NCBI GenBank assembly: GCA_965287045.1
Contig: OZ336874.1
Span: 60,884,001-60,948,000 of the forward strand
Reading direction: 5' to 3'
DNA from: Carcharhinus amblyrhynchos
Lineage: Eukaryota
Length of the DNA stretch: 64,000 nt
Positions 9,001-15,000 of the stretch are shown one piece after another. Position numbers: made by a program. How positions within the stretch are numbered: the stretch's first letter is position 1; every line of letters starts with the position of its first letter.

Positions 9001-12000
9001 TCCCTGCTTTTATATTCTATCCCCCTCGCTATAAAGGCCAGCATCCCATTCGCCTTCTTGATCACCTGCTGCACCTGCAGACTGGGTTTTTGTGACTCAG
9101 GCACAAGGACCCCCAGGTCCCTCTGCACCGTAGCATGCTGCAGCTTTTCGCCTTTTAAATAGTAATCCCTCCTACTATTATTTCTGCCAAAGTGGATAAC
9201 CTCACACTTGCTAACATTGTACTCCATCTGCCAGGTCCTCGCCCACTAGCTCAGCCTATCCGGATCCCTCTGCAGACTTTCCACACCCTCCACGCAATTT
9301 GCTTTTCCACTCATCTTTGTGTCATCAGCAAATTTCGTCACCCTACACTCAGCCCCCTGCTCCAGATCATCTATATAAATGGTAAATAGCTGAGGCCCCA
9401 GCACCGATCCCTGCAACACTCCACTCGTCACCAACCGCCAATCAGAATAGCACCCATTGATACCAACTCTCTGCCTCCTATTAGACAACCAATCCTCTAT
9501 CCACGCTAACACCTTACTCCCAACTCCATGTACCCTAACCTTCTGAAGCAACGTTCTGTGAGGCACCTTATCAAACGCCTTTTGAAAATTTAGAAATACC
9601 ACATCCACCGATTCCCCTCTGTCTACAACATGCATGATGCGTGATTTCATGCGTGATGCCTCAAATGTTTGCCTTTTCCCCTATTACTCTACCGAGCAAA
9701 CATTCAATACATTTGTATGTGGAGTTGAATATGAGCGAGGGCATATATGGGATTCACACTGGTTTATTTACCAAATGGACATCTTCTCTACAGTATTCTT
9801 TATTTCTCTGCTTTTTTTGTACAATGTTAACACTTGCTGATAAGAACATAAATATTACACATTGATGACTGAGAAGGTAAACATCGGTTCACCATACCTT
9901 TGTCAGCAACCTTTTGCTTAGCATCTTCAATTCTTTGCAATTCTCTCTGCTTCAATTCTTGAAGTTGCAATTCCTCTTTTTCTGCATCATATTCGATACC
10001 TAAAACACACATTTAAACAGAACTTACAAAACACACTTACCTAAAACACATATTTAAACAGAACTGACAAATACAAGAGTTAGCTGTCATAACAACTTAC
10101 ATAATATGCCTTTACATTTACATCGTTCATTTGGCTAATAAAAAGTGTACATTTTTATTATTCAAAAACTGCACACAAGTATGCTAACTTGTGATTAAAA
10201 GTTCACTTGTACTTCACTTAAAATGTGCTTTAACGAAAAACCACATTGACTCCTGCAAGAATGATATACCCTGTAAATAATTCCTTCTGCAGATTTTCAA
10301 TTTATTAAATCAAAATAATCTAACAAGAATCATTTTACTGTCAGATAGCTTATATCAACTCTCAATTCTACTGTTCTATTTAGAGAAAATAATTAATTCT
10401 ATCTAGCATCTTATTTCATCACATGAAAACAGCTCAACACCCAAAAAATGAATTGCTTAATAACTTTTGCACAGGGAGAAACTACAATAATTATCTCCAG
10501 TTCACATTATAAACACAACACAACTGTTCGTGCAGATCACACAAAAATGTTCATTGCTGAATTAACAATGGAATAGAATCTTTCCTTTGTATACCACAAC
10601 TATACAGCTACCATGGGAAATAGTTTGACTCTCGTGATGAATCTCATTGCTCTTGCTGCATGTTTTACTGTCGCAGGCTACAATTAAACATAGTATGTTT
10701 ACTTTTATTTATTCAGTCATAAATAGGCTTATGTTAACACTGCTGTGAAGTTACTGTGAAAATCCCCTAGTCGCCACGCTGCGGCACTTATTTGGGTACA
10801 CTGAGGGAGAATCTAGCATGGCTAATGCACCTAACCAGCACCTCTTTTGGACTGTGGAAGGAAACCGGAGCACCCAGAGGAAACTCATGATTCAAGGGAG
10901 AATGTGCAGACTCCGCACAGACAATGACTCAAGCTGGGAATCGAACCCGGATCCCTGGCTGTGAGGCAGCAGTGCTAACCACTGTGCCACCATGCACTAA
11001 CCACTGTGCCACCATGCTGCTTATGGATGTGTTCTGACTAGACACACTACAATTGCAACAATCGTGCTGAAACCAATGCTCCAGTGCAATGATGTGGATA
11101 GCAGGTCGACAGGTGACCAATGAACTAAGACACTTTGAAATGAGTGCTGGCGAGGCTGTGAGGGTAGGAATTGGGGTAGTGGCGAGCCTGTGAATCGGGG
11201 CCTGTGGATGGTCTCACCAATGCAAGAGACTATTGAACCAAAACGTCTGCTTTGTTTTTAATTTCACACAGTTCCAATGCAACCTACAGAAGATAAAGCA
11301 ATTCTGAAGGAATAGTTCTGTTCCTTATTCAAGTGCACTATTGAAAGAAAAATAAGCAAATGGTTGCAAACTCAAGTACAGTTTCTAATCAATGAGCTTG
11401 AAATTTATCAGCAATTTTATCCTTGAGCTTGAAATCAATGGTGTTGGTGGGTGCTGCAAAGTTACCATTAGATTCCAGCCTCTAGCCAAAATCGAAAACA
11501 AAAACAGGAAATTCTGGAGCATCTCAGCAAGTCATCCAGACTCTAAACGTTGGCTCTATTCTCCCTCTACAGCTGCTGCCAGGCCTGAGATTTTCCAGCA
11601 TTTTGTTTCTCTTTGAGGCAATTAAAACATCTTGAAAAGAAAAACAACTTTCGTTCTCCCTCCCCTGCAGAACAGTTCAAAAAAAAACTTCTGAATGAAT
11701 TCACAGCAAAAAAAAGGTTCACCTGCCATTCTTTTGATAAACAGAACAAAACTGAAGAACAGAATCGTGAGTGAACATTTCAATGTTTTCACAATTATTG
11801 CCAATCTGTGAAACTAAGACAAATTCTGTAAGAAACAGCAGAGGTACTTCGCCTCTCGGCCTTTTGGCTGAGATCAAGTATAGTATCGACATGCTGTGCT
11901 TGGATGAAGTCAATAGGTTACATTTCAGCTTCATTTGAAGCAATTTTTAAAAACAGATGAGTTCAAGCTTTGGAGGAGGAGCTATGCCTACTCCAATCAG

Positions 12001-15000
12001 CTTGGATCATGTAGATCAAGCCCAAGACAGGAGGTGAGAGCCCTGTCTTGTCAGCTTGGGTCGGGAATGTCTCAACTTGTTGACACTCTGAATTGGACTT
12101 GATTTGATTGAACTAGAATTAAAAACCATTAAGACATTGATGGTTGGATTTAGAAGAATAGGCCTTGGATTAGCCTTTGTCCTTCATTCATTCACGGAAT
12201 ATGAGCATTGCTAACCAGGCCAGCATCTGTTGTCCATCGCTACTTGCCCTGGAGAAAGTGGTTGGGAATCAAGAGATTTCTTTGCAAAAAGAGGGCATCT
12301 TGCCTTAATTCAACACCACTCATGAGCTTGAACCTAACATTCTGGCAAGTTACATAAAATGGTAACCACGTGTATAAAGTTAATTGACGGTTACACAGAA
12401 TGCATTTGCTTTGATGCTCATCGATGTGACACAGAATAACTGGCGAACACTTAAGTGATAATTTTGCAAAATTAACCTTTTAAATTTCAATTCACCTGGA
12501 ATAAGGTACTCAAATGTATAAATTTATTCTACCTCTTGACACTTTAAAATAGATTATATAGGCAAACACAGCTCTGAATAAAAGATTTCTCTTTTGGACT
12601 TCAGCGACACCAGTTATAGACTTGACTAAAGGACAACTACAAACTTGAATATTGCTAAAAAAAAATTGCTGAAACTTTTGGGCTTGCATTCATCAGGGCA
12701 AATGCAAGAACGCCAATTTTCACAAAACGTTATACTTCAGGGGAAAAAATGGTGCCAAGCTGTTACAGTAAGAAGTCTCACAACACCAGGTTAAAGTCCA
12801 ACATGTTTATTTGGTAGCAAAAGCCACTAGCTTTCGGAGCACTAGTACCAAATAAACCTGTTGGAATTTAGCCTGGTGTTGAGGGACTTCTTACAGTGTT
12901 TACCCCAGTCCAAACCAGCATCTCCACATCATGGCCAAGTTGTTACACAGAGAAAGCAAAAGGAACTATAGGCTGCCCATGCTTCCGAATAATTCAAAAA
13001 AGAACAAGGCTTGAACATATTCCTTTTGCTTGCCGAGAAAGTCCCTGTGTACGAATGTGTGTTGTCTCTAGCATGTGTAAATAAGCCACATTAGGAGCTT
13101 TACTGATGATTTTAAATTGGTTTAGTGTAGTTATTAGCACTTTCAAGATTGTTCAGCGAGTGTTATCAAAACAGTAACCATATCTAACAATTGATATTTT
13201 TCTTCGAGTCTTACAAGTGCAGGCTCTCAAGGACAGTCTAGATCCTACTTAATACAAGCAACAAAACTACAACAAGATGCATTTTGCTTACTGGCACATG
13301 GTACAACGAGCAAATAGATTCCATCCAGTGTGGCTTCCACTGCTTGACCATAAAGATTCTTCCATGGTATCTTCAGTTCAAGTTTAGCTAAGAAAATAAT
13401 AATGTTGGTTAAATATAAATTAAAGTGGGCACGCAAAAATCCAGAAGTTTTGTCAGAATGATACAATACTGCTTGATCTTGAGACACTTCCTCATATGTC
13501 CCAGGTGAAGAATATTTGTAAAGAAGACCCCATGAACTGACGTTACGCTTTGAAGATGTAACTAGTAGAGTTGACAAGGGGGAACCAGTTGATGTGGCAT
13601 ATTTGGACTTTCAGAAAGCGTTTGACAAAGTCCCACATAAGAGATTATCATGCAAGGTTAAAGCACATGGGATTGGGGGAAGTGTATTGAGATGGATAGA
13701 AAACTGGTTGGCAGAGAGGAAACAAAGAGCAAGAATTATTGGTTTTTTAAAAAATTGGTATGCAGTAACTAGAGAAGTGCCACAGGGATCGGCGCTGGGA
13801 CTGATCCAATGATTTGGATGAGGGAACAAAATGTAACATCTCAACATTTGCAGATGGTACCAGTTGGGTAGGAGGGTGAACCATGATGAGGATGTAGAAA
13901 TCCTTCAGCATGATCTGGACAGATTGAGTGAGTGGGCAAATCAATGGCAGATGCAGTATAATTTGGATAAACGTGAGGTTACTCACTTCATAAATAAAAG
14001 CAAAATAGCAGATTAATTACTACCTGAATGGCTGTAAATTGGGAGAGGGGAGTGTGCAGCAGGATCTGAGTGTCCTTAAGCACCAGTCGCTGAAGGTAAG
14101 CATGCAAATGTAGCAAGCCATAATGAAGGCAAATGGTATGTTGGCCTTCATTGTGGGAGGTTGAGTACAGGAACAGGGGTGTGTTGTTGCAATTAAACAG
14201 GGCCTTGGTGAAGCCACACCTAGAGTATTGTGTGCAGTTTTGGTCACCTTTTCTGAGGAAGGATGTTCTTGCTCTCAAGGAGTGTGGCAAAGGTTTACCA
14301 GGCTGATTCTGAGGATGGCGGGACTGACGTATGAGGAGGTTATAATTATTTTTGCTGGAGTTCAGACGAATGTTGGGGGGGGGGGGGGGGGGGGGGGGGT
14401 GGAAAGAGGAATCTCAGACTTATTAAATTCTAACAGGATTAGACAGGGTAGATGCAGGGAGGATGTTTGCAATTGGTTGGGGGGTGGGGTCATAGTCTGA
14501 GGGTTTGGGGTAGACCATTTAGGACATCATCTGGGACTTTGAGAGCTGTTTAATACTTTAGTTCTTCACCCAAAGACTGGTGAGCCTGTGGAATTCATTA
14601 CCACAGGAAGTAGTTGATGCCAAAACGTTGAATGTATTCAAGAAGTGGCTTGGTATAGCACTTGGGGCGAATGGGTTCAAAGGTTATGGAGAGGAAGCAA
14701 GATTAGGTTATTGAGTTTTGATGATTAGCCATGATTGTAATGAATAGTGGAGCAGGCTCAAAAGGATCAAATGTCCTCCTCCTACTCCTGTCTTCTATGT
14801 TTCTTTGTTATGTTCTGCCTAATAGACTGCAATTTAGACCAATATGATCAGTGTAACAGAATTCTTTATGTGAAGTGGCCAATTTGACAACTGATTGAAA
14901 TGCAGATGCATTGTACATAGGTTTTAAGAGGGTGTTTGACAAGATGACTTACAGCAGAGTTTTTAAAAAAAAATTCAGGTATATGGTTAAAAAGAAAATC

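What the first reader, a model, noticed from the sequence alone, without database searches (positions are those of the whole stretch)
11848..12125. U2-snRNA-headed chimeric element with a structured tail: candidate SINEU-like or Keno/Utopia-derived family in a shark
Seen: U2 nt 1-40 (36/40 identical) joins abruptly to about 235 nt of non-U2 sequence. That tail has a 9-bp hairpin (caagacagg 12023-12031 / cctgtcttg 12042-12050) inside an imperfect outer stem, a repeated tcagcttgg motif, and an A-rich end (ttgatttgattgaactagaattaaaaa). One substitution (A23G) converts the C10-A23 mismatch of U2 stem I into a C-G pair. Known: U2-targeting retrotransposons (Keno of the Tx1 clade; Utopia) insert at about U2 nt 37-38, and snRNA-headed SINEs (SINEU) were described in crocodilians. 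Inference: this may be a dispersed copy of a U2-headed non-autonomous retroposon rather than an ordinary truncated U2 retrocopy. No target-site duplication was identified.
Basis: partly seen in the sequence, partly recalled or inferred. Interest (0 to 1): 0.72.

Follow-up and report, generated by a model that had tools for sequence, protein, structure and literature searches.

The report
U2-headed hairpin-rich retrocopy, family unproven
The first 40 bases of the U2 splicing RNA are fused to a hairpin-rich stretch inside an intron, most likely a dead retro-copied chimera; whether it belongs to a repeated family could not be tested here.

Summary
Window 11848-11887 is U2 snRNA nt 1-40, the only U2-like piece in the 64 kb (Rfam 45.1 bits against a curated cut-off of 46). 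The following ~235 nt have no U2 signal of their own. The 9-bp hairpin, the TCAGCTTGG repeat and a weak A-run (5 A) are all present.

New here:
- The element folds far better than shuffles (z = -5.1).
- The first 12 nt of the tail pair with U2 nt 28-39; 3 of 5957 random flanks did as well.
- The U2 break lies within 2 nt of the Keno/Utopia integration site.

Against or missing:
- No target-site duplication.
- No true poly(A).
- No second copy in the window.
- No partner LINE.
- Head-tail sequence similarity and strand bias of folding are not significant.

The decisive test, copy number in shark genomes and a Dfam/Repbase comparison, could not be run. No eukaryotic DNA collection was available.

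Best reading: a decayed U2-headed chimeric retrocopy, SINEU-like in build, lying antisense in an intron of a VPS13-like gene. Family status stays open. Interest is moderate.

The parts
11848..11887 (+). U2 snRNA head, U2 nt 1-40, starting at U2 nt 1
   Evidence: Rfam RF00004 alignment, model positions 1-40, 35 of 40 equal to the consensus. The head alone scores 35.8 bits. It is the only U2 match in the window.
11854..11873 (+). U2 stem-loop I, 8 bp, with C10-G23 closed by the A23G change
   Evidence: Structure line; helix list.
11875..11902 (+). Junction hairpin: U2 nt 28-39 (including the branch-point-recognition positions) paired with tail nt 44-55; 12 bp, 3 of them G-U, 4-nt loop that holds the U2/non-U2 join
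   Evidence: The head plus a random 19-nt window segment reached the same energy in 3 of 5957 trials.
11888..12125 (+). Non-U2 tail; its 3' limit is not established
   Evidence: No U2 match when scanned alone. No similar stretch elsewhere in the window.
11909..12084 (+). Closed multi-hairpin domain: an 18-bp long-range stem (11909-11926 with 12064-12084, 3-nt bulge) enclosing three hairpins
   Evidence: MFE and centroid agree. The 188-nt core folds at z = -4.9 on + and -3.3 on -.
11928..11941 (+). Small 5-bp hairpin
11955..12012 (+). Hairpin unit B
   Evidence: It shares its stem base (AGTTCAAG ... GCTTGGAT) with unit C and with the junction hairpin.
12013..12065 (+).
   Evidence: Four of 6 inner pairs differ from unit B on both sides yet still pair.
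12103..12125 (+). Terminal 7-bp A/U hairpin and 5-A run; putative 3' end
   Evidence: This is weak: only 5 A, and no duplication follows it.

Best explanation
This is an old, inactive, RNA-derived insertion. It is a chimeric retrocopy whose 5' end is U2 snRNA nt 1 to 38-40. The remaining 200-240 nt come from a different, hairpin-rich RNA, probably of transposable-element origin.

Inferred mechanism:
1. A transcript started at the U2 start site.
2. It left U2 sequence at the spot where the U2-specific LINEs Keno and Utopia integrate (between nt 38 and 39). This happened either by read-through from a U2 gene occupied by such an element or a short derivative of it, or by a reverse-transcriptase template switch onto U2.
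3. A LINE machinery copied the transcript into a new site.

This is the route discussed for the U2 heads of Tx1 LINEs and SINEU in crocodilians.

In the RNA, the first 12 nt of the tail pair with U2 nt 28-39, so the head and tail fold as one unit and the branch-point-recognition bases are buried. The copy lies antisense in an intron of a VPS13-like gene and shows no sign of present function.

Shown: the U2 head, the abrupt join, its position, and the structure. Inferred: retroposition, the Keno/Utopia link, and a transposable-element origin for the tail. Not shown: that other copies exist.
For: - The U2 head starts at model position 1 and ends at 40, as expected for a copy of an RNA 5' end.
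- The tail has no U2 signal.
- The join is within 2 nt of the Keno/Utopia site; under a uniform break model that is about 5 of 188 positions (my arithmetic).
- The junction hairpin is matched by 3 of 5957 random flanks.
- The whole element folds at -99.5 kcal/mol, z = -5.1, with 0 of 200 shuffles as good. Only 3 of 918 window-strands have a larger GC-corrected excess.
- Units B and C keep their stem bases while 4 of 6 inner pairs changed on both sides. They are about 56% alike by my count, far more diverged than the head is from U2 (5 of 40). They therefore predate this insertion and were not made in place.
- The architecture equals the description of SINEU-1J and of Tx1-11_Crp with a U2 head (PMC4494074, Results).
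Against: - No target-site duplication above chance.
- Only 5 A at the putative end.
- No second copy of the tail in 64 kb (best other blastn hit 21 nt, E = 0.6).
- The one LINE family whose 3' end I could see here is CR1-type. It ends in a different hairpin plus an 8-nt microsatellite.
- No RT or endonuclease frame is found at the element.
- Head-to-tail sequence similarity is not significant (p = 0.76 and 0.9).
- Better folding of the + strand is explained by G+T content (63 of 459 windows are as asymmetric; z = -1.5 after correction).
- The minus strand is also structured (z = -3.1), so DNA-level inverted repeats are not excluded.
- The unit B/C covariation rests on three sequences (28 of 500 shuffles as high).
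- The junction-hairpin test was chosen after seeing the hairpin.
- Translations of the tail found no relative.
Confidence: 0.5

Rival explanations
1. It is a member of a dispersed, multi-copy U2-headed non-autonomous retroposon family (SINEU-like) of cartilaginous fishes.
For: - Same evidence as the best explanation.
- The head and tail fold as one unit.
- Diverged internal hairpin units imply a history before this insertion.
- In SINEU, partial duplications and repeated head additions are described (PMC4494074 Results).
Against: - No other copy in 64 kb.
- No target-site duplication.
- No poly(A).
- Nothing found in protein collections that do hold elasmobranch LINE proteins.
- No paper in the library reports SINEU outside crocodilians.
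- Copy number was not testable here.
Confidence: 0.3
2. It is a one-off chimera. A LINE reverse transcriptase copying the 3' part of some other RNA switched template onto U2 snRNA at about nt 40 and ran to U2 nt 1, as in the snRNA/L1/Alu chimeras of mammals. Pairing between the donor's 5' part and U2 nt 28-39 may have held the two RNAs together.
For: - The U2 part is sense, 5'-complete and at the 5' side.
- The join sits in the loop of a 12-bp head-tail helix.
- Such U2 chimeras are cited in PMC4494074 (Discussion).
Against: - Those chimeras carry poly(A) and duplications, which are not seen here.
- I see no microhomology at the join, by eye.
- The coincidence with the Keno/Utopia site would be unexplained.
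Confidence: 0.2
3. It is an ordinary 3'-truncated ('tailless') U2 retropseudogene of 40 nt. The 'tail' is merely the pre-existing intron DNA or an unrelated palindrome-rich repeat, and its structure and junction pairing are coincidence.
For: - Truncated snRNA copies are the commonest kind (PMC4494074 Discussion).
- The tail is unique in the window.
- Both strands of the tail are structured, as for DNA-level inverted repeats.
- Other strongly folding, repeat-derived stretches lie nearby (12650-12927).
- The 3' limit at 12125 is arbitrary.
Against: - The junction hairpin is matched by 3 of 5957 random flanks.
- No duplication directly flanks the 40-nt head either (one search covered downstream starts from 11880).
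- The break is at the Keno/Utopia site.
Confidence: 0.2
4. It is the remnant of a genuine U2 gene broken in place by a Keno- or Utopia-type insertion.
For: The break is at nt 38-40.
Against: - No U2 nt 39-188 anywhere in the window.
- No RT or endonuclease frame next to it.
- The locus is an intron of a VPS13-like gene.
- U2 promoter elements could not be tested without a reference.
Confidence: 0.05
5. It is a functional structured non-coding RNA or variant snRNA gene.
For: Strong predicted structure. The glocal Rfam U2 score, 45.1 bits, is about 9 bits above the head alone.
Against: - Below the U2 cut-off.
- The tail alone matches no Rfam family at E <= 1.
- There is a change inside the branch-point-recognition positions relative to the consensus.
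- No conservation data are available.
Confidence: 0.03

Closest known systems
SINEU (SINEU-1J type) of crocodilians, Kojima 2015 (PMC4494074)
   Same: A short U2-derived 5' head in sense orientation, a 3' part of unknown origin, an A-run at the end, length under 500 bp, and internal partial duplications. T-runs inside make polymerase III transcription unlikely; TTTT and TTTTT are present here.
   Different: Copy number is unknown. There are only 5 A, no duplication, and no Tx1 partner or Mariner target seen. The host is a different vertebrate class. Sequence similarity to SINEU was not testable. The junction hairpin is not mentioned in the sections of the paper that I read.
Keno (Tx1 clade) and Utopia, U2-gene-specific LINEs (PMC4640811; PMC6136364)
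   Same: The U2 sequence stops within 2 nt of their integration site, where U2 downstream of the insertion starts at nt 39.
   Different: There is no reverse transcriptase or endonuclease, no U2 nt 39 onward after the element, and the locus is not in a U2 gene. Utopia was not listed for cartilaginous fishes in Table 1 of that paper.
Template-switch snRNA chimeric retrocopies (U6/U2 joined to L1, Alu or mRNA pieces), as cited in PMC4494074 Discussion
   Same: An snRNA in sense at the 5' side is joined abruptly to a piece of another RNA.
   Different: Those carry poly(A) and target-site duplications; here neither is seen. That the snRNA part of such chimeras is usually full length is my recollection, not from a call.
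Tailless 3'-truncated snRNA retropseudogenes
   Same: It starts at snRNA nt 1 and is truncated at the 3' side.
   Different: No flanking duplication was found. The adjoining sequence pairs with the head and belongs to a strongly structured unit.

Membership tests
SINEU | 5' head derived from U1 or U2 snRNA | tested here: met
   Rfam U2, model positions 1-40.
SINEU | 3' poly(A) tail | tested here: inconclusive
   Only 5 A at 12121-12125. It could be a decayed tail or chance.
SINEU | Many dispersed copies with the same structure | not testable with these tools
   There are 0 further copies in the 64-kb window. No eukaryotic DNA collection was open. Two exact-word scans of the prokaryote collection found 0 and say nothing about sharks.
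SINEU | Target-site duplications (about 10 bp, seen occasionally) | tested here: not met
   The best direct repeat is a 7-mer, below the shuffle mean. At about 10% decay a short duplication could be hidden.
SINEU | Sequence similarity to described SINEU-1/2/3 | not testable with these tools
   No Repbase or Dfam sequences are held, and figures are not held.
SINEU | Tx1-type partner LINE sharing head or target preference | not tested
   The one LINE reading frame I classified is CR1-type. Its 3' end is unlike the tail.
Keno / Utopia | Encodes reverse transcriptase plus endonuclease | tested here: not met
   No Pfam match in the open frames over 11722-12479. The element is under 300 nt.
Keno / Utopia | Sits in a U2 gene, with U2 from nt 39 on its 3' side | tested here: not met
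   No other U2 piece in the window at E <= 1.
Keno / Utopia | 5' flank is U2 ending at or near nt 38 | tested here: met
   The U2 match ends at nt 40, within 2 nt. The 5' junctions vary among families.
Template-switch snRNA chimeric retrocopy | snRNA in sense at the 5' side joined to another RNA's 3' part, with poly(A) and duplication | tested here: inconclusive
   The first part is met. Poly(A) and duplication were not found.
Tailless truncated snRNA retropseudogene | Truncated snRNA flanked directly by a duplication, next to unrelated DNA | tested here: not met
   No duplication. The flank pairs with the head; 3 of 5957 random flanks do as well.
Functional U2 snRNA gene | Full-length U2 with Sm site and 3' stem-loops, reaching the Rfam cut-off | tested here: not met
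   45.1 bits against a cut-off of 46. The tail alone gives no match.

The most novel reading that the evidence does not exclude
This is one copy of the first snRNA-headed (SINEU-like) retroposon family outside crocodilians, in a cartilaginous fish. It would have been born from a transcript that started in a U2 gene and crossed the Keno/Utopia integration site. Its body would be a conserved multi-hairpin RNA whose first helix pairs with, and hides, the branch-point-recognition bases of the U2 head.
Probability: 0.25. Interest if true: 0.6.

Novelty: new member of a known kind. Interest (0 to 1): 0.4.

Why it matters
If other copies with the same join exist, snRNA-headed retroposons would be shown in a second, very distant vertebrate lineage. 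The position of the join would tie the origin of such heads directly to U2-site-specific LINEs, a link that the crocodilian work only suggests. The head-tail hairpin would also offer a testable idea of how a U2-headed transcript avoids behaving like U2.

If the tail is single-copy, this is one more decayed snRNA fragment in an intron and of little interest.

Tried and rejected
- **Diverged full-length U2:** rejected. The tail alone has no U2 signal and the head alone gives 35.8 of the 45.1 bits.
- **Tail built from older U2 heads:** the 8-mer AGWTCAAG of U2 nt 24-31 recurs at the base of hairpins B and C (3 of the window's 15 matches), and GCTTGGRT likewise (3 of 11). Local alignment of head against tail is no better than shuffles (p = 0.76 and 0.9), so I make no claim.
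- **RNA-level (plus-strand) structure inferred from G-U pairs:** there are 10 G-U among 92 pairs, but the strand asymmetry is ordinary once G+T content is allowed for. Dropped. A mirrored-structure energy printed is meaningless (non-standard pairs) and is not used.
- **MITE with the 18-bp stem as terminal inverted repeats:** the flanks show no matching duplication, by eye. Not pursued.
- **Tail as the 3' end of the local CR1-type LINE:** no similarity.
- **Known RNA families in the tail:** only chance-level snoRNA matches (E = 1.9 to 7).
- **Copies hidden in predicted proteins:**
  - The 61-codon open frame 11917-12099 found no candidate.
  - It gave one repeat-driven false hit in 1.84 billion representatives (32% identity over 38 residues, repeated about 11 times).
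  - The 42-codon frame across the join found none.
- **Prokaryote genome collection:** 0 exact matches for two words; uninformative for sharks.
- **Polymerase III boxes, snRNA promoter elements and a splice-branch origin of the tail:** considered from recall only. No reference was available from a tool, so not tested and not claimed.
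Full report
**What is there**

The window has no N. Nothing in it was taken for human.

Reading 11500-12500 and scanning with Rfam shows a single U2-like piece in the whole 64 kb:
- It lies at 11848-12012 (+), at 45.1 bits against a curated cut-off of 46.
- E = 8.1e-08 in a 601-nt scan and 8.6e-06 for the whole window.
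- At the curated cut-off nothing in the window passes.

In the printed alignment only model positions 1-40 match by sequence. By my count 35 of 40 equal the Rfam consensus. The match begins at model position 1.

The head alone gives 35.8 bits. The tail alone (11889-12300) gives no U2 match at E <= 10.

The other observed details also hold:
- A23G closes C10-G23 in stem I.
- The 9-bp perfect hairpin, the outer imperfect stem and the TCAGCTTGG repeat are present.
- The 'A-rich end' is 5 A.

Eight such hairpins occur in 64 kb, and the 81 nt around it fold at z = -1.4.

The 278 nt fold at -99.5 kcal/mol. Shuffles average -74.2, giving z = -5.1, and 0 of 200 fold as well. Among 918 window-strands of the same length, 3 have a larger GC-corrected excess.

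The fold contains:
- U2 stem-loop I.
- A 12-bp hairpin in which U2 nt 28-39 (11875-11886) pair with tail nt 44-55 (11891-11902). The U2/non-U2 join lies in its 4-nt loop.
- An 18-bp long-range stem (11909-11926 with 12064-12084) that closes a domain of three hairpins: 11928-11941, unit B at 11955-12012, and unit C at 12013-12065.
- A small A/U hairpin at the end.

I appended 5957 random 19-nt segments of the window to the head. Only 3 reached the energy of the real junction. This test was chosen after seeing the hairpin.

Units B and C share their stem bases but differ in the inner stem, where 4 of 6 aligned pairs changed on both sides and still pair (28 of 500 shuffles as high; only three sequences). 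B and C are about 56% alike by my count, while the head differs from U2 at 5 of 40 positions. The tail's internal duplication is therefore older than this insertion.

**Results against over-reading**

- Head-to-tail sequence similarity is not significant, although the 8-mer at the base of the three hairpins clusters here.
- The better folding of the + strand is what its G+T content predicts.
- The minus strand is also structured, so the structure may be DNA-level inverted repeats as well as RNA-level.
- No target-site duplication is detectable around either the 40-nt head or the 278-nt unit. At about 10% decay a short one could be hidden.
- There is no second copy of the tail in the window.

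**Context**

Two pieces of a VPS13-like N-terminal region lie on the minus strand:
- Profile positions 28-56 in frame 39492-39785.
- Profile positions 61-93 in frame 13248-13610.

The element lies in the next intron, antisense to the gene.

One search scanned 14 of the 29 ORFs of at least 110 aa. One search scanned 148 of the 178 stop-to-stop frames of at least 75 aa, those up to 51327.

The LINE frame I classified (27595-29376, minus) is CR1-type. Named elasmobranch proteins are 64-68% identical and bird proteins about 50%. This is consistent with, but does not prove, a shark or ray origin. Its 3' end is a G+C-rich hairpin plus an 8-nt microsatellite, seen twice, and it is unlike the tail.

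**Comparison with what is known**

- **PMC4494074** (outline, Results and Discussion read): SINEU are crocodilian retroposons with U1/U2 heads. SINEU-1J has a short U2 head, a tail of unknown origin and poly(A). Heads were added repeatedly. A Tx1 LINE related to Keno carries the same U2 head. The paper distinguishes families from one-off template-switch chimeras by copy number.
- **PMC4640811** (outline and sections 5, 6 and 8 read): Utopia and Keno share one site, U2 downstream of the insertion starts at nt 39, and 5' junctions vary.
- **PMC6136364** (passages only): places the Keno site 37 nt into U2.
- **PMC5381603, PMC5753468 and PMC5786205** (passages only): mention SINEU for crocodilians or as a class.

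The join here, at nt 38-40, is within 2 nt of the Keno/Utopia site.

No paper in the library reports SINEU outside crocodilians or in sharks (searches; also 51). Repbase and Dfam could not be consulted, so the family may already be catalogued there.

**Verdict**

The most likely reading is a decayed, RNA-derived, U2-headed chimera of SINEU-like build whose join reflects the Keno/Utopia site.

The rivals remain open:
- A one-off template-switch chimera.
- A plain truncated U2 copy beside unrelated structured DNA.

- The genome collection holds prokaryotes only (searches found 0).
- Protein collections gave nothing credible.

It stayed unchecked.

Noticed in passing
window 27595-32106 (-): Retrovirus-like stretch, described only. 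An RNase H piece (31621-32106) is closest to murine-leukaemia-type RNase H structures. An envelope transmembrane-like piece (syncytin/GP2 matches) sits at the start of the open frame 27595-29376 and runs in the same frame into a CR1-type LINE reverse transcriptase. The envelope-like gene is therefore interrupted by at least one insertion. The other genes were not mapped and breaks were not surveyed.
   Followed up: partly
window 13248-13610 (-) and 39492-39785 (-): Two exon pieces of a VPS13-like gene (Pfam VPS13_N positions 61-93 and 28-56), about 26 kb apart. The finding lies in the intron after them, on the opposite strand. The exons were not joined.
   Followed up: partly
window 520-660 (+) and about 27500-27600 (-): Two 3' ends of the same CR1-type LINE family: a G+C-rich hairpin followed by an 8-nt microsatellite.
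   Followed up: partly
window 12765-12897; copies at 16533-16639, 38012-38103, 48619-48682: A palindromic repeat (52-nt arms, 88% complementary) present at least four times in the window. It accounts for the other strongly folding stretches at 12650-12927 and 48512-48928.
   Followed up: partly
window 10697-10995; copies near 3797, 36119, 53462, 55501: A SINE-like repeat about 300 nt long at 73-79% identity between copies. It ends in a 22-nt tandem duplication at 10975-11017.
   Followed up: no
window 16813-17064 (+): A piece of a DDE_Tnp_4 (Harbinger/PIF-type) transposase.
   Followed up: no
window 9249-9680 (-) and 13522-13809 (+): Two further LINE reverse-transcriptase fragments. The second starts about 130 nt from the VPS13-like exon piece, on the other strand.
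   Followed up: no
window 14375-14399: A run of 25 G.
   Followed up: no
proteins P0073 and P0115: Two proteins labelled as from bacteria (Carnobacterium, Klebsiella) are 60-61% identical to this vertebrate CR1-type reverse transcriptase. This is probably animal DNA contaminating those assemblies.
   Followed up: no
window 45150-45216 (-): A weak mir-586-like match (26.9 bits against a cut-off of 89, E = 0.19). Probably chance.
   Followed up: no
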